Positions 26,159 to 61,021 of a stretch of DNA of 64,000 nt are shown here, piece by piece; the first letter of the stretch is position 1, and each line of letters opens with the position of its first letter. The stretch spans positions 4,585-68,584 of the forward strand of contig JBCCHQ010000001.1 in NCBI GenBank assembly GCA_039028735.1, read 5' to 3'. The stretch comes from Planctomycetota bacterium (lineage in GTDB: Bacteria; Planctomycetota; UBA8108; UBA1146; JAJFFE01). A model generated the notes under the pieces. The model was given only the letters and a program-made list of their open reading frames with translations, had not been told where the DNA came from and did no database searches. The position numbers and the translations under genes are program-made.

Positions 26159-26758
26159 GTGGTGCCGATGACTAGATACACAACGCATATCTCCTTGCTG
26201 CAGCGCGTGTCCGCCAGCACCGATCCGGCGGCCTGGCGAGAGTTCTGCGACCGCTACGGCCTCCTGATCCGCAGCTTCGCCCGCCGCCGGGCACTGCAGC
26301 CCGCCGACTGCGACGAAGTCGTGCAAGATGTCCTCACAGCTCTGACGCAAGCCATGCCGGGGTTCGAGTACGACCCAACGCGCGGCAAGTTTCGTGGCTA
26401 CTTGAAAACAATCACGCTGCGCGAGATCCAGAAACGCTACCGACAACATCGCGAGTTGCCGCTCGCTACCGATGGCGAAAGCCAGGGCGTCGAGCTGGAA
26501 CGCGACGACGCTGCACTCGATCAGACTTGGGAAGACGAGTGGCGCCAATATCATCTGCGGCAGGCCATGCGTAGCATCGAGGTGGAGTTCTCGGAGGCAG
26601 ACCGCGAGGCGTTCGATCTCTACGCTGTCCACGGCACACCGGCCCAGGAAACTGCAACGCGTCTCCAACTGAGCGTCGATCAGGTGTACCAGGCAAAGTC
26701 GCGAATTCTGAAACGCATCGAAAGCCTGATCGAGCGCCAAGTCGAGGACGAAGGATGA
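26159..26758 (+). CDS. ECF-type RNA polymerase sigma factor
   Basis: Sigma-70 region 2 is DEVVQDVLTAL. Region 4 is TATRLQLSVDQVYQAKSRILKRIE. Start is GTG 26159 or ATG 26168. The stop overlaps the downstream kinase start (ATGA). Confidence 0.8.
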   Translation: MVPMTRYTTHISLLQRVSASTDPAAWREFCDRYGLLIRSFARRRALQPADCDEVVQDVLTALTQAMPGFEYDPTRGKFRGYLKTITLREIQKRYRQHRELPLATDGESQGVELERDDAALDQTWEDEWRQYHLRQAMRSIEVEFSEADREAFDLYAVHGTPAQETATRLQLSVDQVYQAKSRILKRIESLIERQVEDEG

Positions 26759-28590
26759 GTAACGATTGGTTTCACGGCGATGAGCTCCTCGGCGAGCTGC
26801 GCAAGGCACCTCGCAGTGATGCGGCCCCACGAGTTCCCGGATACACGCACCTGGAAGAAATCGGCCGCGGCGGCCAAGGGGTTGTCTTCGAGGCGCTCCA
26901 ACAATCCACGCAACGAACCGTTGCGATCAAGGTGTTGCACGAAGATGTGACTCGAGTCGTCGAGCGGAAAACTCGTTTCGAACGCGAGATCGAACTGGTA
27001 TCGACACTAGAGCACCCCTGCATCGTGCGTGTCTACGACAGCGGTGTCACTGAAGACGGCCAACTCTACTACGTCATGGAGCGCCTCGTAGGTGTCCCCC
27101 TCGACCAGCACATCAGCGATACGCAGCCGACACAGGCGTGGATCGTACAACTGCTGATTCGAATTGCCGACGCAGTCGGCTTCGCCCATCAACGTGGGGT
27201 CATGCATCGAGACCTCAAGCCAGCCAACATCATCGTCTCTTCCGATGGAGCACCTCACATCCTCGACTTCGGCGCCGCCAAGCGTGCGCTTCCGGTAGAA
27301 GACGGCGAGGGATTCGCAACATTGACTCCACGCGAAGACGTCACGGTGGCCGGTGATTTCCTCGGCACGCTGGCGTTTGCGTCGCCGGAACAAGTCTCCG
27401 GGGATCCAGCGCGTGTAGACATCCGTACAGACGTCTACGCCTTGGGGCTGATTCTGTACCATTGCCTGGCTGGTCGGTTGCCGTACGATGTCTCGGGCGC
27501 TGTCGCCACCGTCGTGCAGTCGATCGTGGACGCACGGCCGCAGCCGTTGAAGGCTCACTCCGAACTGCAACTCATCGTCAGTAAGGCGCTCGACAAGGAT
27601 CCAGAGCGGCGCTATTCGTCTGCCCATACGTTCGCGCGCGACTTGGAGCGTTTCCTTCGCGGCGATCCAATCGAAGCTCGCGGCGACTCGACTTGGTACG
27701 TCTTGCGCAAGACGGTTCAGAAGCACAAGGTCCCGTTCGGCTTGGCTGCGCTCCTCACGGTGTCCGCCGTGTTCTTTGCCGTCTCTATGTTCATCGCGTA
27801 TCGCAACGTCGCTCGTGAACAGAGCAAGACAAGCGACATCAAGATCTTCTGGGAAGACACGCTAGGGTCAGTGGCGCCCGCACGCCCCGGCGCAGCCATT
27901 ACCTTCGCCGACGTACTCAACGAAGCCGTGGCTTGGATCGAGATCACGACAGAAGGAGAACCTGAGATCGAAGCGTCCCTGCGTACGACCGTCGGCAACG
28001 GCTACCGCAACCTCGGGCGGTTCGACGAAGCCGAAGAGCAGCTGCAGCGGGGATTGGCGCTGCGGCGCGAGCTGTTTGGCCCGAATCACGCAGACTCGAT
28101 AGCGAGCTTCAACGCCATCGCTTTGCTCCGACAGAGCCAACAACGCTACGACGAAGCGGCCGCCATGTTCACTGCGGCCCTCGATGCTCGCATCGCACTA
28201 CTTGGTTCTGAACACCCCGCAGTGGCGCAGAGCTACCAGAACCTCGGGCGTGTGGCGTTCCAGCAACAGCGCCTCGACGAAGCGGAGGCGCTGTACCTGA
28301 AAGTACTTCAGCGGCGAATCGCGCTGTATGGGGCGAAACACCAGGGCGTGGCCATGGTGCAATTCGATCTCGCTGAAGTTGCACGAGTTCGCGGTCGCCT
28401 GGAGGAGAGCCTCTCGCTCCATTCCACGGCTCTTGCGACGCGCAGGGAACGGCTCTCGCCACCGCACCCCGATCTCGCACGCTCGCTACGCGCTCTAGGA
28501 GAGATACTCACACTGCTGGGACGAACGGCCGAGGCGCAAGCGGCGCTCGCTGAGGCCGACGACATCGGACGCAGCCTGCGCGGAAACTAG
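26755..28590 (+). CDS. Ser/Thr protein kinase with a TM segment and C-terminal TPR repeats
   Basis: Kinase motifs are EIGRGGQGVV, AIKVL, HRDLKPANII, DFGAAK and SPEQ. The TM segment is VPFGLAALLTVSAVFFAVSMFIAY. TPR-like repeats follow. It is translationally coupled to the ECF sigma gene. Confidence 0.85.
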   Translation: MSNDWFHGDELLGELRKAPRSDAAPRVPGYTHLEEIGRGGQGVVFEALQQSTQRTVAIKVLHEDVTRVVERKTRFEREIELVSTLEHPCIVRVYDSGVTEDGQLYYVMERLVGVPLDQHISDTQPTQAWIVQLLIRIADAVGFAHQRGVMHRDLKPANIIVSSDGAPHILDFGAAKRALPVEDGEGFATLTPREDVTVAGDFLGTLAFASPEQVSGDPARVDIRTDVYALGLILYHCLAGRLPYDVSGAVATVVQSIVDARPQPLKAHSELQLIVSKALDKDPERRYSSAHTFARDLERFLRGDPIEARGDSTWYVLRKTVQKHKVPFGLAALLTVSAVFFAVSMFIAYRNVAREQSKTSDIKIFWEDTLGSVAPARPGAAITFADVLNEAVAWIEITTEGEPEIEASLRTTVGNGYRNLGRFDEAEEQLQRGLALRRELFGPNHADSIASFNAIALLRQSQQRYDEAAAMFTAALDARIALLGSEHPAVAQSYQNLGRVAFQQQRLDEAEALYLKVLQRRIALYGAKHQGVAMVQFDLAEVARVRGRLEESLSLHSTALATRRERLSPPHPDLARSLRALGEILTLLGRTAEAQAALAEADDIGRSLRGN

Positions 28591-32502: not shown

Positions 32503-32853
32503 ATGGTCAAGCGCGTCGACTGGTACTACCACCGCAACGGCTGAACGAGCTGCACTCGATCTCAGGAGTTCCTGAGCGAAGCTGACGTAACGATCAAAGA
32601 ACAGGTCGACGCCAAGAAGGAGGTCCGTGACCGCGCGGGGGCACTAGAGGTCCTCAGCAAGGCGAATCGGATCATCACGTGTCGTGGCAAGAAGATCGTC
32701 GAGTTCGACATGAAGAACGAACCGCCCGCACAAGACGAGCTGTTGAAGACCGCTCTCGGCCCGACGGGGAACCTGCGAGCACCAACCATCGCTTGCGGCA
32801 AGACGGTGATCGTTGGCTTCCATCCCGATGCGTACGGAGAAGTGCTCAGCTAG
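32503..32853 (+). CDS. ArsC/Spx/YffB-family thioredoxin-fold protein with an in-frame TGA (codon 14) at the redox Cys position: candidate selenoprotein (U-T-S-C motif)
   Basis: ATG 32503 with a GGAG RBS. The frame runs MVKRVDWYYHRNG-TGA-TSCTRSQEFL... and continues to TAG 32851-53 (116 aa total). The tail LRAPTIACGKTVIVGFHPDAYGEVL is ArsC/Spx-like (cf. Spx [25 protein letters not shown]). The TGA is at 32542-32544. Confidence 0.6.
32556..32579 (+). promoter_or_regulatory. SECIS-like hairpin 12 nt downstream of the in-frame UGA
   Basis: The sequence is TCGatCTCAGG-AGTT-CCTGAGCGA. It has a 6-bp core stem plus a 3-bp outer stem. The apical loop is AGUU. Confidence 0.4.
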
Positions 32854-48716: not shown

Positions 48717-51700
48717 CTAGCTGGTCACGACGAGGTCGCGGACAGCGGCCAAAGACAGCGTCTTGCCGGCTGCGAGATCGCTGCCCCAGCTGTCGTTGCC
48801 CACCTTCGCCCGGACCTCCGAAACCCAGGCAACGTCCGTCGGCTCAGGTTCCGTGCCGCCAGTGCGCTCTGCAATCGTGGTCGCCAGACCGTATACACGC
48901 ACCGCAGCCGCAACGGCGTTGCTGACGGCTAGGAAGCGCGCCGCGCACCACAACAAATCAGCGTGCAGCGTCGTTTCCGAGAGTTGTTCGGCGGCTTCGA
49001 GCCCCTCAGTCAGCATCGTGGTCACGGCCAAGCGATCCTTCTGATCGATGGCGACTCGAGCGATGTTCGTCAACGAGCGCAGAACACCTTCTTGGTCGCC
49101 GAGTTCACGCTGTAGCGCGACGCTCTCTTCGTGAAACTGACGTGCTTCGTCGAGGCGACCCGCCAAGTGCGCGACCAACCCTAGATTGCTCAGCAGGTTG
49201 CGCTCCGTTCTGCGGTTGCCCACGGACCGACTGATGTCGAGCGCTTCCCGATACAACGTGGCCGCCGCCGCAAAGTCTTCGCGACCATAGGCAACGCTGC
49301 CGCAACTCTGCAAACAGACAGCAATGCCCTGCTGGTCTCCAAGCTCACGGAAGATGCCAAGAGCTTCATCGTAGTAGTCGCCGGCAGCGTCGTTGTCTCC
49401 TTGCGACAGCGCGACAAGCCCCAGGTTACTGAGGGCGACTCCCGTCTTCTTGCGATCAGAAAGCTGACGGGCAATGTCGAGGCTCTCCTCCAGCCGGACT
49501 CGCGCTCCGGAGAGGTCGCCTTCGCGACGATCGACTACAGCGACGTCGTTGAGGGCGCTCGCGATCCCCGACGGGTCACCAAGCTCGCGCCGAATGCGTA
49601 GCGCCTCGTCGAAAGCCAAGCGCGATGTCGACAAGTCGCCCTGCATCATCGCCAACTTCCCCAAGCACGAAAGAGCCGATGCTCGAGGGTTGTTGCCGCT
49701 CGTAGCAGCCGATAGCTCCAACGCATCGCTTGTGAACGAGCGCCCTTCGGTCCAATGGCCGCGCACCAACCAGTAGTGCCCCAACAATGCGACCAGCTGC
49801 AGCGCGTTGCCGCCCCCGTCTGCAGAATCTGCCAAGAAGCGCTGCAGCGCCGCACGAGTGTTGCCACGCTCGAGCTCGAGCAAGTCGAACCACTGCGCCT
49901 GTTCCGGTCCGGCCAGTTTCTCGTCCGCCTGCCCTGCAAGCTGCAGAAAATAGGCGCCATGGCGCTCGACCATTGCCGCGCTCTCTCCACACTCGTCGAG
50001 CTTCTCCCACGCATACTGGCGAATCGTCTCGAGCGATCGGTAGCGCGTCAATTCGTGCTCGCCGTCGGCAACGGCCGTGACTTCGACCAGTGACTTGTCG
50101 ACGAGGTTCGCCAGAAGATCGAGCACTTCGTAGTCTTCGATCTCGTCGTCGGAACAAACCTGCTCTGCCGAATCCAACGTCCAGCCACCGACAAACACAG
50201 CAAAGCGCCGCAGCAGCGCCTGCTCTTGTTCATCGAGTTGGTCGTAGCTCCAGTCGATGGCTGCGCGCAGTGTTTTCTGGTGTGGAAGAGCCATCTTGTT
50301 GCCGCCTCGCAGCAGCCGAAAGCGATCGGCCAAGCGCTCGGCAATATCGTTGACGGACAACACTCGAATGCGCGCTGCAGCGAGCTCTAGCGCCAGCGGG
50401 ATTCCATCAAGGCTCTGGCACACCTGCGCTACGGCGGCCGCATTCTGTTCGGTCAGCTCGAACGACGACTTCAGGGCGCGAGCACGTTCGACGAACAACG
50501 CGACGGCTTCGTTGTCCGCAAGCTCGCCCACGGGGGGCAAATGATCGAGGTCTGGCAACTCCATCGGTTCGACGTGATAGATCTGTTCGCCAGGAACGTT
50601 GAAGGCCTCGCGACTGCTCGCAATGATTTTCAGATCCGGGTACGTCAGCATCAACTGACTGACGATCTTCGAAATCGGTTCGATCATGTGTTCGCAATTG
50701 TCGAACACGAAGAGCAGTTGCTTCCCCTTCAGGTAGTCCATCAAAGTCTCGACTACACTGCGGCCGGGGTCCTCCTTGAGGCCAAGCACGCTCGCAATCG
50801 TACGCGGTACCAGCCCCTCGTCTTGCAGCGACGCAAACTCGACCAACCAGACGCCGTCCGGAAACGCGCCCAGATTGCGGCGCGCAACCTCCAGGCCAAG
50901 GCGCGTCTTTCCCGAACCCCCGGTGCCAGTCAGCGTCAACAAACAGGTGTGGGTCAAACACTCGAGGGTCTGCTCCAGCTGTCGCCGACGGCCAACGAAC
51001 GTCGTCAACTGTGCCGGAAGGTTGTTCGGGCCGGCGTCGCCAGTTCCCCCGGCTTCGGCATCTCGATAACGCGTCAAGACCTCGTCGAGCGTTCGCCGCA
51101 CGTCGGCAATCGACGCAGTGCGTTGCTCAATGTCGGTGGCGAGGCAGCCTTGTAGCAGCGACCGGATCGCCTTCGGGGTCGTTTCAGGGAGGCGTCCCCA
51201 ATCGATCGATGCCCGTTGGGTCGCAGAGACGCACTCGGCCAATGTACGAAACGTCAAAGCTGCTGACCCGGTAAGCATCTCGAACAGTACGCAACCGAAT
51301 GCCCAGATATCGACGCCTTCGCCCAACGGCCCGCCGCTGAGTTGTTCGGGACTCATGTAGCCAGGAGTTCCCGCCATCGACGGGTTGGCATCGTCAAGAC
51401 CAAGGTCTTCGGCGGCCTGGCCACGCGCGGTTGCGATTCCGAAGTCGAGGATCTTGGCAGTACCATCGCTAGCCAGCATCACGTTGCCGGGCTTCAGGTC
51501 GCGGTGAATCACACCGCGCGTATGCGCTGCCTGCAGCCCGCCCGCAATCTGCTTGGCGATACCGAGCGCGTCCGCGAACGACACTTCTTCTTTGAGTCGA
51601 TCTTGCAGCGACTGCCCCTGCAGATGCTCCATCGTGAAGTAGCGCAGCCCACCCTCTCCCTCGAGGCTGAAGATGGTCGCGATGTTGGGGTGATTCAACG

Positions 51701-52187
51701 CAGCGAGCAGCTGCGCTTCTCGTTCGAACGCCTCCAACGCTGCCGTGTTCGCGACGACCTCGTCGGGGAGCACCTTCAACGCGATCCGCCGCTTCAAACG
51801 TGGATCCTCCGCGAGATAGACGACCCCCATGCCGCCGCGGCCGAGCTCGGCAACGATCTGATACGGACCGATCGCGGTCGGAGGTGCGCCGTCGGAGCTG
51901 GCCGTGCCTACCGGGTGCGGGGCATTACTACCGTCGAATGCGACGGTCGCATCGTCTCCGATTGGTGCAGCAGACGGGGCGCCGGTTGCAATCGTTTCCG
52001 ACAGGTCCACGGTCGCACCATCGGCCAGCGGGGCTTGACCAGCACTCGGAGGCTCGGTGGAAATCGTCTCGGACAGATCCACCGTTGCATCATCAGTAAT
52101 GGGAGTGTCCGGCGGCGGCGGCTTGCCGGCCCCGGGGGGCGCATTCCCGGGGGGCCCATTCCCGGGTGTTGGTTCGTCTGGTCTCAT
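48717..52187 (-). CDS. Ser/Thr protein kinase fused to an NB-ARC/AAA-type P-loop NTPase and TPR repeats (STAND-like signalling protein)
   Basis: ATG 52187 with an AGGAG RBS. The N-terminal Pro-rich region carries tandem (D/G)ATVDLSETI repeats. Kinase motifs are ELGRGGMGVVY, HRDLKPGNVM, DFGIA. The P-loop is TGTGGSGKTRL. The C-terminal ~450 aa are TPR. Confidence 0.8.
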   Translation of the reverse strand: MRPDEPTPGNGPPGNAPPGAGKPPPPDTPITDDATVDLSETISTEPPSAGQAPLADGATVDLSETIATGAPSAAPIGDDATVAFDGSNAPHPVGTASSDGAPPTAIGPYQIVAELGRGGMGVVYLAEDPRLKRRIALKVLPDEVVANTAALEAFEREAQLLAALNHPNIATIFSLEGEGGLRYFTMEHLQGQSLQDRLKEEVSFADALGIAKQIAGGLQAAHTRGVIHRDLKPGNVMLASDGTAKILDFGIATARGQAAEDLGLDDANPSMAGTPGYMSPEQLSGGPLGEGVDIWAFGCVLFEMLTGSAALTFRTLAECVSATQRASIDWGRLPETTPKAIRSLLQGCLATDIEQRTASIADVRRTLDEVLTRYRDAEAGGTGDAGPNNLPAQLTTFVGRRRQLEQTLECLTHTCLLTLTGTGGSGKTRLGLEVARRNLGAFPDGVWLVEFASLQDEGLVPRTIASVLGLKEDPGRSVVETLMDYLKGKQLLFVFDNCEHMIEPISKIVSQLMLTYPDLKIIASSREAFNVPGEQIYHVEPMELPDLDHLPPVGELADNEAVALFVERARALKSSFELTEQNAAAVAQVCQSLDGIPLALELAAARIRVLSVNDIAERLADRFRLLRGGNKMALPHQKTLRAAIDWSYDQLDEQEQALLRRFAVFVGGWTLDSAEQVCSDDEIEDYEVLDLLANLVDKSLVEVTAVADGEHELTRYRSLETIRQYAWEKLDECGESAAMVERHGAYFLQLAGQADEKLAGPEQAQWFDLLELERGNTRAALQRFLADSADGGGNALQLVALLGHYWLVRGHWTEGRSFTSDALELSAATSGNNPRASALSCLGKLAMMQGDLSTSRLAFDEALRIRRELGDPSGIASALNDVAVVDRREGDLSGARVRLEESLDIARQLSDRKKTGVALSNLGLVALSQGDNDAAGDYYDEALGIFRELGDQQGIAVCLQSCGSVAYGREDFAAAATLYREALDISRSVGNRRTERNLLSNLGLVAHLAGRLDEARQFHEESVALQRELGDQEGVLRSLTNIARVAIDQKDRLAVTTMLTEGLEAAEQLSETTLHADLLWCAARFLAVSNAVAAAVRVYGLATTIAERTGGTEPEPTDVAWVSEVRAKVGNDSWGSDLAAGKTLSLAAVRDLVVTS

Positions 52188-52866: not shown

Positions 52867-53448
52867 CTAGCGAGAGCCGGGCTCGAGCTCGGCGCGGAGA
52901 CGCTCTTCGCAGGCGGTCAACCCAGAGGCAACGATCCGGCCGCTCGGATTGACGAGATAGAACGTCGAGCCCCAGACCAAGCGCACGCCGTAAGCTTCGC
53001 AGTCTGCTGTGGCGTTGGCCAGCAACAAGAAGTTCAGGTCGCAATCGTCAGCAACCTTCTCGGCATCGCGACGGCTGCCGGCCGTGACACCGACAATCAT
53101 GAATCGCCGCCAGTCGTCGAACTCGGCTTGCACCTGCACGAGGTGCGGCATCTCCTCGATGCATGGCCCTCACGACGGCAGGAAGAAGACCAGCAACGTC
53201 CAACGGTTGCGCAGCGAGCCCGCATTATGGCCAAAACCAGTGCGATCGATACGAGGCTGCAAGACTTGTAGCTCTGGTGTGGGCGCGACCCATTGGCGCC
53301 CTTGCAGCGGCGGCGCGATCGATCCCTCGAGGTCAGAGTTGCTGAGGGCCAGGAACCCAGCGCGGACCGTGCCACAGCCGGAAGCGGTCACCAACAAGCC
53401 CGAGAGGAAAATGAAAAGCGCCAGCTGTCGTCGCATCGCTGCGTGCAT
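52867..53448 (-). CDS. TlpA/ResA-like thiol:disulfide oxidoreductase lipoprotein with an in-frame TGA at the first redox Cys: candidate selenoprotein (U-G-P-C motif)
   Basis: Track ORFs 53170..53553 and 52867..53151 are in the same frame and are separated only by TGA (53172-53170). Read-through gives WTLLVFFLPS-U-GPCIEEMPHLVQVQAEFDDWRRFMIVGV, which is a textbook TlpA pattern (cf. VLVNFWASWCGPCRAEMP). The C-terminal is STFYLVNPSGRIVA. Start ATG 53448 or 53436 precedes the lipobox-like TASGC. Confidence 0.6.
53135..53163 (-). promoter_or_regulatory. SECIS-like hairpin 8 nt downstream of the in-frame UGA (minus strand)
   Basis: Read on the minus strand it is GCAuCGAGG-AGAUGCCGCA-CCUCGUGC. It has an 8-bp stem with a 1-nt bulge and a 10-nt loop. 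Confidence 0.35.
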
Positions 53449-53453
53449 CTTGC

Positions 53454-53720
53454 CTACTGCACGACTCGACCATAGAGGCCGTTGCCGAGGTACTCGATCT
53501 TGCCCTTCTCTACCAACGCGTCCCAAATCTCCTGTGGGAACTGTTCTGGGCACCTGATGCCGACGATCCCGGACTGGCCGCCTTTGGTCATCGCGCCGTG
53601 GCCAAGGCGAGACTCGTCATCGAGACGGTGCAGCTTCAAGCGCTTCTTGAACGCTTTCATCGCTTGCTGCAGTTCTTCTTTGGTGGGGCCTTCCGACCCG
53701 GTGTCGTCCGACGGTACCAT
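53454..53720 (-). CDS. Small hypothetical protein, translationally coupled to the downstream TlpA-like gene
   Basis: ATG 53720 (MVPSDDTGSEGPTKEELQQAMKAFKK...). It is 88 aa. Its stop TAG lies 5 nt before the TlpA-like ATG. Confidence 0.4.
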   Translation of the reverse strand: MVPSDDTGSEGPTKEELQQAMKAFKKRLKLHRLDDESRLGHGAMTKGGQSGIVGIRCPEQFPQEIWDALVEKGKIEYLGNGLYGRVVQ

Positions 53721-53835
53721 GGGGCCTCCTGTTCGAATGAAGTCGGCTCGCCCAAGAGCGAGTAGGATGCTCTTCGACTGCTGCTGACAATAACAACTCA
53801 CCGCCCCAGAATCGAGTACGAGGAGTCCTTAGCGA

Positions 53836-58708: not shown

Positions 58709-61021
58709 GTGCGCGCAGTGGATGTTGAGCTCGAGCAGTTGCTTTCAGAGTTCATTGAGCGCCGTGATCGTGGCGAAGCGTTGACTGCAGACGCCTTCTG
58801 TCGCGAGCACCCCCACCGCGGCGAACAACTCAGAGACGCACTCCGCGCTTTCGAGTCCACCAGCGAGATGTTTCCAGATCGCATCGCTACGCCGCAGCGA
58901 ATCGGTCGCTATGAAGTCCTCGAGACGCTGGGGCGCGGCGGCCTTGGTGTTGTCGTGCGCGCCCGCGATCCCGAGTCTCCCGACACAGACGTCGCGTTGA
59001 AGCTGCTGCAACCGGGCGCTCTCGTGAACGCTCGCGCGAGGGAGCGCTTTCGCCGCGAGGGTGAGGCACTGCAACGCGTTTCGCATCCGAACGTCGTTGG
59101 CGTCCGAGAGGTCGGTGACGACAACGGTCAGCCGTTCCTAGCTATGGAATTGATCGAGGGGCGCTCACTCGCGGATTGGATCGACGACTTCCGCCACACC
59201 TCGTCGACCGAGCTCGAAGCACGGGCGCTTCCCGGGAGTGGCTCCGGGATGCAGCGGGTGTTGCACGCAATGATCCCTCTTGTCGAGGCAGTCGCCACGC
59301 TGCACGGCGACGGCATTCTGCATCGAGACTTGAAACCACAGAACGTGATCCTGCGCGACGACGGTACACCAGTGCTCGTCGACTTCGGCCTGGCTGGCGA
59401 TGACGAAGTGGCCACCATGACTCGCACAGGTGATGTCATGGGCACACTCGCATACATGCCCCCCGAACAAGCCCGCGGTGAGCGCGTGGATGAACGCGCC
59501 GACATCTACGGGTTGGGTGCCATCTTGTATGAACTGGTCACACTGCAGCGACTGCATGCCACGGCTGACTCAGTGAATCTGCTCCAAGCGGTCACGCAGA
59601 AGGGACCAAGGCCCGGCAGTCACCTGCCGCCCGACACTCCAGCATCGCTACGCCGCGTCCTCTACCGTTGCTTGGCCTTCCAGCCCAAGAATCGCTACGC
59701 AGATGTCAACGACCTGCTTGCCGACCTACTTGCACTCCGGGAGAGTGCGCCCGTGCGGGCTGCCGCAGCCGGTCCGATGGAGCGCACCCACGATTGGATC
59801 CGGCACAACACACGCGCGGCTCTCGGAGTAGGTGTTACGGGTGCGCTGCTACTGGTGGCAGCGATCTGCGCAGCGTTCTTTCAGGTCGCTGCCACCCGCG
59901 ACGCGAAGTTCGTGCGACTTGGCGACGAAGCGACGATCGCCTGGGTGCGGGGCGCCTTCGACGCCGCGCGGTCGCATGCGATCGAAATGCAGGATCTGCG
60001 TCCCGATGATCCGTTGCCGGACTTCTTCCTTTCGGAACCAGCAGGCGCTACCGCAGGAAACGCGCCGGTAAGAGCTGGGTATGCGCAGCTGCGAGAAGCT
60101 ACGGCACTGTTTGCAGCCAGAGAATACCCCGCCGCCATGGCGCAGGCTGAAGCGGCGCGGCGCGCCCTCCCGGATTGGGCGCTCCCACCAGTCGTGATCT
60201 CTCGAATTGCCTACAAGATGCGTGATCGAGATCGCGCGGCACGGGAACTGTCGATCGCTGTGGGACTGCTGCCGGCGTCTGCACAGATCCACCACGAACT
60301 TGCAACCGTGCTCTATCGGCTCAGAGACCACGAGGGCAGCATTCGCTCATCGCGTGAGGCCACGGAGCGCGCGCCTCACGTTGCCGACTACTGGATACAG
60401 CTATCGAAGGTCTGCCTGCGACTCTCGCTTCAAGAGGAAGGGCTTGCCGCCGCGCAGAAGGCGGCCACGCTTGGCAGCGAAGGTGAACGTTCCAAGGGAC
60501 TGCAAGCCCTTGGTGTCTTTCTAGACGCGACTGGCGAGCACGAGAAGGGCCTCGAGATTCTCCTCGATCTGTACCAGCGCAACCCCAACAGTCGCAACAT
60601 CTGTTTCAGCGTCGGCCTGATCTACGATCGACTCGAACAGCACAAGAAGGCACTGGAGTTTTATGAACGTTCGATCGAGATCAAACCAACAGAGTGTGAA
60701 GGGCGACTCAGCGTCGCCAACATCTATGCCGGAGCGAATCGAGAGAACTGCGCCGACTGCGAAGCCTTCTTCGCTGCCAATCCAGAGTACCTCGATTTCG
60801 ACAAAGCTACTGACCTGTGCCGCGAAGCCCTGGATATCGATCACGGCAACTCAACAGTCGTCGTGAAGACGTTGGTCGATGTGATGGCAAACATGGGAAA
60901 GCTGGACGAGGCAATCTCGTGGCTGCAGGCTGAACGCGACCAAGCAACGCGAGATCAACAGATCGTGAATCTGCAACGCGGCATCCAGCAAGCCAACAAG
61001 CTGAAAGCAATCTCCCAATGA
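58709..61021 (+). CDS. Ser/Thr protein kinase with a TM segment and C-terminal TPR repeats
   Basis: GTG start. Kinase motifs are LGRGGLGVVV, ALKLL, HRDLKPQNVIL, DFGLAGD. The TM segment is ALGVGVTGALLLVAAICAAFF. TPR repeats follow. Confidence 0.8.
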   Translation: MRAVDVELEQLLSEFIERRDRGEALTADAFCREHPHRGEQLRDALRAFESTSEMFPDRIATPQRIGRYEVLETLGRGGLGVVVRARDPESPDTDVALKLLQPGALVNARARERFRREGEALQRVSHPNVVGVREVGDDNGQPFLAMELIEGRSLADWIDDFRHTSSTELEARALPGSGSGMQRVLHAMIPLVEAVATLHGDGILHRDLKPQNVILRDDGTPVLVDFGLAGDDEVATMTRTGDVMGTLAYMPPEQARGERVDERADIYGLGAILYELVTLQRLHATADSVNLLQAVTQKGPRPGSHLPPDTPASLRRVLYRCLAFQPKNRYADVNDLLADLLALRESAPVRAAAAGPMERTHDWIRHNTRAALGVGVTGALLLVAAICAAFFQVAATRDAKFVRLGDEATIAWVRGAFDAARSHAIEMQDLRPDDPLPDFFLSEPAGATAGNAPVRAGYAQLREATALFAAREYPAAMAQAEAARRALPDWALPPVVISRIAYKMRDRDRAARELSIAVGLLPASAQIHHELATVLYRLRDHEGSIRSSREATERAPHVADYWIQLSKVCLRLSLQEEGLAAAQKAATLGSEGERSKGLQALGVFLDATGEHEKGLEILLDLYQRNPNSRNICFSVGLIYDRLEQHKKALEFYERSIEIKPTECEGRLSVANIYAGANRENCADCEAFFAANPEYLDFDKATDLCREALDIDHGNSTVVVKTLVDVMANMGKLDEAISWLQAERDQATRDQQIVNLQRGIQQANKLKAISQ

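What the first reader, a model, noticed from the sequence alone, without database searches (positions are those of the whole stretch)
52867..53448. TlpA/ResA-like thiol:disulfide oxidoreductase lipoprotein with U-G-P-C in place of C-G-P-C: second candidate selenoprotein
Two minus-strand ORFs in the track (53170..53553 and 52867..53151) are in the same frame. They are separated by a single TGA (53172-53170). Read-through produces ...RWTLLVFFLPS-U-GPCIEEMPHLVQVQAEFDDWRRFMIVGV..., which is the canonical TlpA/ResA WCGPC active-site context (beta-strand, then Cys-Gly-Pro-Cys, then helix). The UGA lands precisely on the first Cys. The upstream part supplies a lipoprotein-type signal (LLVTASGC). The downstream part supplies the rest of the thioredoxin fold (STFYLVNPSGRIVA). 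A stem-loop begins 8 nt after the UGA on the coding strand (53163-53135). Two independent UGA-at-redox-Cys genes 20 kb apart make chance or sequencing error unlikely. This indicates a selenoproteome in this organism that includes periplasmic thiol-redox selenoproteins.
Basis: partly seen in the sequence, partly recalled or inferred. Interest (0 to 1): 0.85.

Follow-up and report, generated by a model that had tools for sequence, protein, structure and literature searches.

The report
Unannotated TlpA/ResA-like selenoprotein lipoprotein gene
The two short "hypothetical" genes are almost certainly one gene for a membrane-anchored thiol-disulfide redox enzyme. Its catalytic cysteine is replaced by selenocysteine, encoded by an in-frame UGA, which makes it a real but fairly ordinary member of a long-known class of bacterial selenoproteins.

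Summary
On the minus strand, 53448..52867 is one reading frame broken only by TGA at 53172-53170. Read-through gives a 193-aa lipoprotein with ...FFLPS-U-GPC...

With U replaced by C it matches Pfam AhpC-TSA above threshold, across the UGA. A family profile puts U on the first Cys of ResA's CEPC.

About 35 database relatives are 80-100-aa C-terminal fragments, truncated the same way. All 10 relatives whose DNA I could read have TGA at the same codon (UxxC in 7, UxxU in 3). These sequences are only 25-42% identical to each other.

A 6-bp hairpin lies 29 nt after the UGA (53146-53130). It is 95.5% paired across the 11 sequences, shows compensatory changes at 3 of 6 pairs (some at synonymous sites), and fits the published bacterial SECIS model.

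A second gene (32503..32853) passes NCBIfam's "ArsC family (seleno)protein" cutoff with its TGA at the Sec position. TGA is otherwise a normal stop here.

Sec-insertion genes could not be checked; none lie in the window.

Verdict: a genuine selenoprotein, mis-annotated in GenBank as two hypothetical proteins. It is a new member of the known Prx-like/TlpA-like UxxC class. Interest is modest.

The parts
52867..53448 (-). Complete selenoprotein coding sequence: 193 codons plus a TAG stop, with one in-frame UGA at codon 93. GenBank splits it into MEM7163847.1 (AAF581_00195) and MEM7163846.1 (AAF581_00190).
53374..53448 (-). Lipoprotein signal peptide ending in the lipobox ...LLVTASG-C25.
   Evidence: Read directly from the sequence. 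An equivalent [LA][AST][GS]-C lipobox is present in every relative whose N-terminus is available. Export and lipidation are inferred.
53170..53172 (-). UGA codon 93, the predicted selenocysteine. It is the N-terminal, nucleophilic position of the U-G-P-C redox motif.
   Evidence: TGA sits at the same codon in all 11 family members that have DNA. The column aligns with Cys74 of ResA and with Cys in P0024.
53161..53163 (-). Cys96 codon, the resolving residue of U-x-x-C. It is a second TGA in three relatives.
53130..53146 (-). Candidate bacterial SECIS hairpin GCACCU-CGUGC-AGGUGC: a 6-bp stem, a 5-nt loop with G-U at loop positions 2-3, and 29 nt between the UGA and the loop.
   Evidence: RNAalifold predicts it independently. 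It is 95.5% paired, 3 of 6 pairs show compensatory changes, 0 of 500 shuffles reach the observed score, and slid controls reach at most 47%. Model criteria are from PMC13188914.
53148..53162 (-). Possible auxiliary hairpin GCAUC-GAGGA-GAUGC between the Cys96 codon and the SECIS hairpin.
   Evidence: 78% paired across 11 sequences, with two pairs changed on both sides. Support is weaker and its role is unknown.
52927..53217 (-). Thioredoxin-fold (AhpC-TSA / TlpA-ResA-like) domain, residues 78-174.
   Evidence: An AlphaFold model of family member P0040 (pLDDT 88.7) is closest to DsbE, ResA and TlpA-like structures.
52966..52977 (-). V-W-G-S motif, occupying the position where ResA/TlpA have the active-site cis-Pro loop.
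   Evidence: Alignment to ResA. W159 and G160 are invariant in the Sec-type alignment A2.
32503..32853 (+). Companion selenoprotein gene of the ArsC family with a U-T-S-C motif. UGA is at 32542-32544. A hairpin CUCAGG-AGUU-CCUGAG lies at 32561-32576.
   Evidence: NF041106 ArsC_rel_Se_1 scores 135.6 bits against a cutoff of 85, E = 9e-40.

Best explanation
53448..52867 (minus strand) is a single gene for a roughly 19-kDa lipoprotein with a TlpA/ResA-type thioredoxin fold. Its active site is Sec93-Gly-Pro-Cys96.

How it is made (inferred): during translation, a hairpin 24-40 nt downstream of UGA93 acts as a bacterial SECIS. It recruits SelB-GTP-Sec-tRNA(Sec), so that UGA is read as selenocysteine rather than stop. 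This follows the established bacterial Sec pathway.

Where it goes (inferred from the lipobox): the pre-protein is exported and lipidated at Cys25, and it faces the periplasm.

What it does (inferred by analogy with ResA, TlpA and CcmG): Sec93 attacks substrate disulfides. The mixed selenenylsulfide is resolved by Cys96, and the Se-S bond is re-reduced by a CcdA/DsbD-type membrane electron shuttle.

What is shown here: the single frame, the fold assignment across the UGA, conservation of TGA at that codon in a divergent family, and a conserved, covarying hairpin that fits the bSECIS model.
For: 1. Pfam AhpC-TSA matches above the gathering score and spans the UGA.

2. Family-profile hits to ResA, DsbE and TlpA-like structures run down to E = 1e-12, with the U column on ResA's first Cys.

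3. A phmmer search of 1.84 billion representatives gave 47 hits. Most are 76-101-aa fragments starting 1-20 residues after the UGA position, the signature of gene callers stopping at a TGA.

4. All 10 relatives whose DNA I could fetch have an in-frame TGA at the identical codon, with conserved coding sequence on both sides. The sequences are only 25-42% identical pairwise.

5. Non-Sec relatives include a CxxC form (P0024).

6. The hairpin at nt 27-43 after the UGA is 95.5% paired.
- Pair 28-42 changes C-G to G-C, pair 29-41 changes A-U to G-C, and pair 30-40 changes C-G to U-A.
- At pair 30-40, the synonymous third position of codon 9 is U exactly in the three sequences whose partner is A, and C in the seven that pair with G.
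- No shuffle out of 500 reached the observed score.

7. The hairpin meets all four published bSECIS criteria: loop 3-9 nt, stem 4-16 bp, G in the first two loop positions followed by U, spacing 16-37 nt, and MFE of -7.5 kcal/mol or lower in its 25-nt context.

8. In the same window, an ArsC-family gene with UGA at the Sec position passes NCBIfam's curated (seleno)protein cutoff.

9. TGA is a normal stop for 15 of 36 genes in the window, so this is not a genome-wide code change.

10. The TGA is reproduced in an independent assembly.

11. Planctomycetes with complete Sec machinery are documented (PMC4807772).
Against: - No selA, selB, selD or tRNA-Sec lies in the 64-kb window, and the rest of the genome could not be searched.
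- No Rfam family matched.
- For the window sequence alone, folding of the post-UGA region is not significant against shuffles.
- One relative (L095) breaks the hairpin register and has a shifted 7-8-bp hairpin instead.
- I could not obtain DNA of Cys-form relatives to show that the hairpin is absent there. A peptide-level upper-bound test was uninformative.
- The covarying positions 9 and 13 are i and i+4 in helix alpha-1, so part of the non-synonymous covariation could be protein-level.
- No selenium incorporation data exist.
- The physiological substrate and the reductant are unknown, and there is no conserved gene neighbourhood.
Confidence: 0.88

Rival explanations
1. The gene is a pseudogene, or the TGA is a sequencing or assembly error, so it is a dead or mis-read Cys-type TlpA gene.
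For: A single in-frame stop in a MAG. GenBank annotates two hypothetical proteins.
Against: - The same TGA is present in an independent assembly.
- TGA is at the identical codon in 10 of 10 relatives that are 25-42% identical, with both halves still conserved as protein.
- About 35 database clusters are truncated in the same way.
Confidence: 0.02
2. These are two independently translated small proteins: an N-terminal lipopeptide and a C-terminal 94-aa protein that starts at ATG 53151.
For: An ATG lies 18 nt after the TGA, and gene callers use it.
Against: - That codon is GTC, ATC, GCG or GCA in 4 of 11 relatives. Callers chose starts 3, 9, 18 or 21 nt after the TGA.
- The split falls inside the beta1-loop-alpha1 active site of a single thioredoxin fold.
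- The six intervening codons, including Cys96, are conserved in frame.
Confidence: 0.02
3. UGA93 is read through, but not as selenocysteine. For example, near-cognate Trp or Cys insertion stimulated by the downstream hairpin, in an organism that lacks Sec machinery.
For: Sec machinery was not found in the window and could not be searched genome-wide.
Against: - The UGA sits exactly on the redox-nucleophile position that Cys occupies in homologues.
- The hairpin matches the SelB-type bSECIS model, including G-U in the loop.
- A second gene in the window belongs to a curated (seleno)protein family.
- UxxU variants parallel known two-Sec Prx-like selenoproteins.
Confidence: 0.05
4. It is a genuine selenoprotein, but it works as a thiol or selenol peroxidase (Prx-like) or a metal or selenium handling protein, not as a ResA/TlpA-type disulfide reductase.
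For: - The best Pfam hit is AhpC-TSA.
- Weak NCBIfam hits to thiol peroxidase appear in relatives.
- The canonical cis-Pro substrate-binding loop is replaced by [IV]-W-G-[SNT].
- Sister proteins lack redox residues altogether (SxxS).
Against: - Peroxiredoxins place the peroxidatic residue at the second position (TxxC or TxxU). Here Sec is at the first position with a resolving Cys, as in Trx, TlpA and ResA.
- The closest sequence and structure relatives are ResA, DsbE and TlpA-like reductases.
Confidence: 0.15

Closest known systems
Prx-like thiol:disulfide oxidoreductase selenoproteins (PF00578; UxxC/UxxU; 1-2 Sec). This corresponds to 'Prx-like 1' of the GOS selenoproteome. First described by Kryukov & Gladyshev 2004, as listed in PMC13188914 and PMC9312934.
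   Same: - The PF00578 hit is above threshold.
- Sec is at the first position of UxxC, and UxxU variants occur in relatives.
- Thioredoxin fold.
- A SECIS hairpin lies inside the coding region just after the UGA.
   Different: - The sequence is very divergent. No word-index homologues were found with the single sequence, and no NCBIfam model reaches its cutoff.
- It is a lipoprotein.
- Trp-Gly replaces the cis-Pro.
- In this clade, TGA forms appear to outnumber Cys forms, whereas published families usually have many more Cys homologues (PMC2398784).
- Direct similarity to the published exemplar WP_010940744.1 was not tested.
ResA (Bacillus subtilis), TlpA (Bradyrhizobium) and DsbE/CcmG: extracytoplasmic thiol-disulfide reductases of cytochrome c and cytochrome oxidase maturation.
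   Same: - The fold matches, and these are the best PDB matches.
- A membrane-anchored extracytoplasmic location is predicted.
- The active site sits at the N-terminus of helix alpha-1, and U aligns with the nucleophilic Cys.
   Different: - Sec replaces Cys.
- Scores are far below the equivalog cutoffs: ResA 21.9 against 170, TlpA 16.5 against 230.
- The cis-Pro is replaced.
- The anchor is a lipobox rather than a transmembrane helix.
- There is no ccm/res or ccdA neighbour.
SelL and the SelL-related redox protein (NF040769), Prx-like selenoproteins with a UxxU diselenide motif.
   Same: Thioredoxin/Prx-like fold. Three relatives of the window gene have U-x-x-U.
   Different: The window gene itself is UxxC. 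The NF040769 score is 18.3 bits against a cutoff of 120, and at most 32.5 bits in relatives.
Escherichia coli fdhF-type bacterial SECIS and the bSECISearch consensus model.
   Same: - A hairpin within the ORF just 3' of the UGA.
- G-U in a small apical loop.
- UGA-to-loop spacing within 16-37 nt.
   Different: - The stem is short (6 bp).
- No bulged U was identified.
- The loop G-U is supplied by a conserved Val codon.
- SelB binding is not tested.

Membership tests
Bacterial selenoprotein gene (Sec-UGA plus bSECIS) | The in-frame UGA aligns with Cys in homologues. | tested here: met
   P0024 has C-E-G-C at the same columns. The U column aligns to the first Cys of ResA's CEPC.
Bacterial selenoprotein gene (Sec-UGA plus bSECIS) | The TGA is conserved at the same codon in orthologues from other organisms, with coding conservation on both sides. 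| tested here: met
   11 of 11 sequences, at 25-42% pairwise identity.
Bacterial selenoprotein gene (Sec-UGA plus bSECIS) | A downstream hairpin fits the bSECIS model: loop 3-9 nt, stem 4-16 bp, G in the first two loop positions, 16-37 nt from the UGA, MFE of -7.5 kcal/mol or lower. | tested here: met
   5-nt loop CGUGC, 6-bp stem, 29-nt spacing, -7.5 kcal/mol for the bare hairpin and -9.0 in a 25-nt context.
Bacterial selenoprotein gene (Sec-UGA plus bSECIS) | The genome encodes selA, selB, selC (tRNA-Sec) and selD. | not testable with these tools
   None are in the 64-kb window. There is indirect support from a second selenoprotein gene.
Bacterial selenoprotein gene (Sec-UGA plus bSECIS) | Selenium is physically incorporated at the UGA position. 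| not testable with these tools
   This needs 75Se labelling or mass spectrometry.
Prx-like thiol:disulfide oxidoreductase selenoprotein family (as defined in PMC9312934 and PMC13188914 by domain plus motif) | PF00578 (AhpC-TSA) domain. | tested here: met
   36.1 bits against a gathering score of 26, E = 7e-9.
Prx-like thiol:disulfide oxidoreductase selenoprotein family (as defined in PMC9312934 and PMC13188914 by domain plus motif) | UxxC or UxxU Sec motif. | tested here: met
   U-G-P-C in the window. Relatives have UxxC (7) and UxxU (3).
Prx-like thiol:disulfide oxidoreductase selenoprotein family (as defined in PMC9312934 and PMC13188914 by domain plus motif) | Demonstrable sequence relationship to the published exemplar (WP_010940744.1). 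| not tested
ResA / TlpA / DsbE(CcmG) / MauD equivalogs (NCBIfam) | Score at or above the curated cutoff. | tested here: not met
   ResA 21.9 against 170, TlpA 16.5 against 230, MauD 18.5 against 188.6. The same holds for 7 relatives.
ResA / TlpA / DsbE(CcmG) / MauD equivalogs (NCBIfam) | Conserved cis-Pro loop opposite the CxxC. | tested here: not met
   V-W-G-S aligns where ResA has L-P-T-T. W and G are invariant in the Sec-type alignment.
Thioredoxin-fold extracytoplasmic oxidoreductase (superfamily level) | Trx fold with the redox motif at the N-terminus of helix alpha-1, plus an export or anchor signal. | tested here: met
   In the model of relative P0040 (pLDDT 88.7), the U-equivalent residue 79 immediately precedes helix 80-99. 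The top structural matches are DsbE, ResA and TlpA-like proteins. The lipobox is read from the sequence.
Peroxiredoxin (Prx) selenoproteins | Peroxidatic residue at the second position (TxxC or TxxU). | tested here: not met
   The motif here is U-G-P-C with Sec at the first position. The Prx motif is as listed.
SelL-related redox protein (NF040769) | Score at or above the cutoff of 120 bits. | tested here: not met
   18.3 bits.
ArsC family (seleno)protein NF041106 (companion gene 32503..32853) | Score at or above the cutoff of 85 bits, with UGA at the family's Sec position. | tested here: met
   135.6 bits, E = 9e-40, full-length match of profile positions 1-107.

The most novel reading that the evidence does not exclude
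The window gene may represent a previously undescribed clade of TlpA-like selenoprotein lipoproteins, apparently centred on Planctomycetota. Its possible distinguishing features:
- Sec, rather than Cys, is the prevailing state at the active site.
- The universal active-site cis-Pro is replaced by Trp-Gly.
- Some members carry a U-x-x-U (diselenide) motif served by a single SECIS hairpin. That hairpin lies within the allowed distance of both UGAs.

If so, this would be a distinct periplasmic selenium-based redox module rather than just another Prx-like UxxC protein.
Probability: 0.3. Interest if true: 0.5.

Novelty: new member of a known kind. Interest (0 to 1): 0.33.

Why it matters
Practical value:
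- It corrects a GenBank annotation. Two "hypothetical proteins", and several truncated "redoxin domain-containing proteins" in other Planctomycetota MAGs, are halves of one selenoprotein.
- It marks this uncultured Planctomycetota lineage as a selenocysteine user with at least two selenoproteins.
- It shows a clade that no current NCBIfam model captures, so automated pipelines will keep splitting these genes.

Scientific value:
- It adds a set of 11 divergent sequences with a covarying in-ORF SECIS. These could help refine bacterial SECIS models.
- It gives a natural series of UxxC, UxxU, CxxC, SxxC and SxxS active sites in one scaffold.

It does not change the general picture. Trx-fold UxxC selenoproteins are the commonest kind of predicted bacterial selenoprotein.

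Tried and rejected
Searches that found nothing:
- A word-index homologue search with the read-through protein gave no hit at E <= 1e-3. The relatives are divergent and stored as fragments.
- Pattern and tblastn scans of GTDB genomes and JGI metagenomes with the single protein found nothing. With the Sec-type alignment, only two loci came back.
- Rfam gave no hit at gathering thresholds.
- ARAGORN found no tRNA or tRNA-Sec in the window or in the relatives' loci.
- Pfam scans of 39 further window proteins (38 other ORFs and the companion ArsC-like gene) found no SelA, SelB or SelD.

Approaches that led nowhere:
- Synteny through the neighbouring Tex gene: the best GTDB match is a 68%-identical Planctomycetota MAG, and none of 80 loci has a TlpA-like relative nearby.
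- Single-sequence folding of the post-UGA region was not significant (z = -0.66).
- The peptide-level upper bound on hairpin formation in non-Sec relatives was not discriminating: 5 of 6 pairs are possible in most of them.
- The read-through sequence could not be submitted to the exhaustive search or to structure prediction. I used the C-terminal 100 aa and the non-Sec relative P0040 instead.

Ideas tested and rejected:
- No other TGA-terminated gene in the window has a plausible in-frame extension.
- There is no conserved gene neighbourhood (orf115, DinB) around relatives.
- P0002 is a repeat-driven false positive.
Full report
**1. The observation**

On the minus strand, the ORFs 53170..53553 and 52867..53151 share one frame and are separated only by TGA at 53172-53170. 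The preceding gene ends at 53454, so the likely start is ATG 53448 (or ATG 53436).

Read-through gives a 193-codon product. It begins MHAAMRRQLALFIFLSGLLVTASG-C25, which is a lipobox, and it contains ...RWTLLVFFLPS-U93-GPC96-IEEMPHLVQVQ....

An independent Logan assembly of run SRR22824298 carries the same TGA, at 99.99% identity over 7.2 kb. TGA is an ordinary stop for 15 of the 36 genes I delimited in the window, so there is no genome-wide reassignment.

**2. What the protein is**

With U replaced by C, the protein matches Pfam AhpC-TSA at E = 7e-9, 36.1 bits against a gathering score of 26. The match covers residues 78-174 and so runs straight across codon 93. NCBIfam gives only weak, sub-threshold hits: ResA, MauD, SelL-related and TlpA.

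A profile of the family (A1) finds Bacillus ResA as the best solved relative (E = 1e-12), followed by DsbE/TlpA-like thiol:disulfide interchange proteins. In the printed alignment, the U column falls on the first Cys of ResA's C-E-P-C. The family's [IV]-W-G-[SNT] motif falls where ResA has its cis-Pro loop.

The tools would not accept the read-through sequence for structure prediction, so I modelled a full-length non-Sec relative, P0040. The AlphaFold model has a mean pLDDT of 88.7. The residue equivalent to U (N79) immediately precedes helix 80-99. Foldseek places the model next to DsbE, ResA and other TlpA-like reductases.

**3. Relatives, and why the UGA is not an accident**

The single-sequence word-index search found nothing. 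Pattern scans of GTDB genomes and JGI metagenomes also found nothing.

An exhaustive phmmer search with the 100 residues after the UGA found 47 proteins. Most are 76-101 aa long, and their first residue aligns 1-20 residues after the UGA position. That is what is expected if gene callers stopped at a TGA in every one of them.

I retrieved DNA for nine fragments, plus one locus from a metagenome scan. In all ten distinct relatives, the first in-frame stop upstream is TGA at exactly the same codon:

| Locus | Motif around the TGA |
|---|---|
| L083 | FFKPL-U-GPC |
| L085 | FFRPH-U-NKC |
| L087 | FFLPG-U-APC |
| L088 | FYDPG-U-GPC |
| L091 | IFNPW-U-GSC |
| L095 | FFDPG-U-GPC |
| L096 | FLIPT-U-GVC |
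| L086 | U-PV-U (two TGAs) |
| L089 | U-GH-U (two TGAs) |
| L094 | U-GT-U (two TGAs) |

The eleven proteins are only 25-42% identical pairwise. Even so, they keep conserved residues on both sides of the TGA (W53, W83, F89, P91 upstream; P101, L103, V118 and others downstream). Every relative with an available N-terminus also keeps the lipobox.

Full-length non-Sec relatives carry C-E-G-C (P0024), N/D-x-A-C, S-x-x-C or S-x-x-S at the same columns.

The codon that supplies the "start" of the downstream ORF in the window is ATG or GTG in seven sequences. In the other four it is GTC, ATC, GCG or GCA. There is therefore no conserved independent start.

**4. The recoding signal**

The sixty nucleotides from the UGA align without gaps in the eleven sequences (A3). 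RNAalifold predicts a single hairpin, columns 27-32 paired with columns 38-43. In the window this is GCACCU-CGUGC-AGGUGC at 53146-53130.

Counting pairs gives the following:
- 95.5% of cells are paired.
- Three of six pairs have changes on both sides (eight cells).
- No shuffle out of 500 reaches the observed covariation score.
- Controls with the 3' arm slid by 1-3 columns reach only 18-47% paired.

The changes are C-G to G-C at pair 28-42 (L083, L094), A-U to G-C at pair 29-41 (L086, L089, L091) and C-G to U-A at pair 30-40 (L087, L094, L096).

Pair 30-40 is the most telling. Column 30 is a synonymous third codon position. It is U in exactly the three sequences whose partner is A, and C in the seven sequences that pair with G. 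Protein-level selection cannot produce that pattern.

The published bacterial SECIS model requires a 3-9-nt loop, a 4-16-bp stem, G in the first two loop positions (usually followed by G or U), 16-37 nt between the UGA and the loop, and an MFE of -7.5 kcal/mol or lower (PMC13188914). Here the loop is 5 nt with G-U at positions 2-3, the stem is 6 bp and the spacing is 29 nt. The energy is -7.5 kcal/mol for the bare hairpin and -9.0 in a 25-nt context. Across the family the range in that context is -8.7 to -13.8.

For the U-x-x-U relatives, the same loop lies 29 nt from the first UGA and 20 nt from the second. Both distances are inside the allowed range, so one hairpin could serve both codons. 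This last step is inference.

Other structures in the region:
- L095 breaks the register but has a shifted 7-8-bp hairpin with loop AGUU.
- A second, weaker hairpin (nt 11-25, window 53162-53148) is 78% paired.

Caveats. The tool's own notes warn that related sequences can beat shuffles without any structure. I could not obtain DNA of Cys-form relatives as a negative control. A peptide-level upper-bound test was uninformative.

**5. Is the organism a selenocysteine user?**

The window contains no tRNA and no SelA, SelB or SelD among the 39 further window proteins (38 other ORFs and the companion gene) that I scanned.

The indirect evidence is good.
- A second gene at 32503..32853 (+) has TGA at 32542 in WYYHRNG-U-TSC.
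- With U replaced by C, it scores 135.6 bits (cutoff 85, E = 9e-40) on NF041106, "ArsC family (seleno)protein".
- It has a 6-bp hairpin with loop AGUU, 22 nt after the UGA.

Database names place the window in a GenBank Planctomycetota MAG. There the target gene is annotated as two hypothetical proteins, MEM7163847.1 (AAF581_00195) and MEM7163846.1 (AAF581_00190). The C-terminal halves of relatives are annotated as "redoxin domain-containing protein" in other Planctomycetota MAGs. Planctomycetes with complete Sec machinery and selenoproteins are documented (PMC4807772).

**6. Mechanism**

Shown here:
- one reading frame;
- a thioredoxin fold across the UGA;
- a TGA fixed at the nucleophile position in a divergent family;
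- a conserved, covarying SECIS-like hairpin.

Inferred:
- SelB-dependent insertion of Sec at codon 93;
- export and lipidation at Cys25;
- action as a periplasm-facing thiol:disulfide reductase, in which Sec93 attacks the substrate and Cys96 resolves the mixed bond;
- re-reduction by a CcdA/DsbD-type shuttle, by analogy with ResA, TlpA and CcmG.

The substrate is unknown, and there is no conserved gene neighbourhood. A peroxidase-like role is a minor rival. It is disfavoured because peroxiredoxins carry the reactive residue at the second motif position (TxxC or TxxU).

**7. Comparison with what is known**

Recent catalogues list "Prx-like thiol:disulfide oxidoreductase" selenoproteins (PF00578; UxxC or UxxU; 1-2 Sec) as predicted with high confidence since 2004. 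[quoted passage not shown]

By those papers' criteria of domain plus motif, the window gene belongs to that kind. It is not a member of the ResA, TlpA, DsbE, MauD or SelL-related NCBIfam families. All scores are far below the cutoffs, both for the window protein and for seven relatives. That also explains the mis-annotation.

Features that set the clade apart:
- the lipobox;
- Trp-Gly in place of the cis-Pro;
- the apparent predominance of TGA forms over Cys forms;
- a large S-x-x-S sister group.

**8. Verdict**

It is a new, unannotated member of a well-known kind of bacterial selenoprotein, possibly a distinct subfamily. It is useful for annotation and for SECIS modelling, but it would not surprise a specialist.

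Confidence that it is a genuine selenoprotein gene is about 0.88. Interest is 0.33.

Noticed in passing
window 32503..32853 (+); TGA 32542-32544; hairpin 32561-32576: A second selenoprotein gene of the ArsC family (WYYHRNG-U-TSC). It passes NCBIfam NF041106 'ArsC family (seleno)protein' at 135.6 bits against a cutoff of 85. A 6-bp hairpin with loop AGUU lies 22 nt after the UGA.
   Followed up: partly
L086 2968 and 2977; L089 870 and 879; L094 2980 and 2989: Three relatives have two in-frame TGAs, giving U-x-x-U at the active site (a possible diselenide). They share the same single downstream hairpin, which lies 29 nt and 20 nt from the two UGAs.
   Followed up: partly
window 52966..52977 (-), residues V158-S161; alignments A1 and A2: In most Sec-type members, the cis-Pro loop of the thioredoxin fold is replaced by [IV]-W-G-[SNT] plus two extra residues. 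W and G are invariant in A2. A minority (L096, P0021, P0027, P0033, P0045 and the Cys form P0024) keep V/I-P.
   Followed up: partly
proteins P0039 and P0049-P0078: A large sister group of 150-200-aa lipoproteins has S-E-R-S or similar in place of U-x-x-C, with no redox cysteine at all. This suggests a redox-inactive thioredoxin-fold paralogue family in the same lineages.
   Followed up: no
window 53454..53801 (-): A 115-codon ORF with no Pfam hit ends 5 nt before the selenoprotein start, so the two are probably co-transcribed. It has no homologue next to the relatives' genes.
   Followed up: partly
window 52867..53448 (GenBank MEM7163846.1 and MEM7163847.1); L091 (GCA_038757895.1, MEM1452534.1): Public annotation splits or truncates these genes as 'hypothetical protein' or 'redoxin domain-containing protein'. 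No NCBIfam model reaches its cutoff for the 8 members tested.
   Followed up: yes
window residues 65-78 of the protein (about 53215..53256, -): Compared with all relatives, the window protein has a 14-residue insertion (PRIDRTGFGHNAGS) between the N-terminal beta-hairpin region and strand beta-1.
   Followed up: no
window 26755..28590, 48717..52187 and 58709..61021: Three large Ser/Thr protein kinase genes fused to TPR or STAND-like regions lie within 64 kb. This fits a Planctomycetota origin.
   Followed up: no
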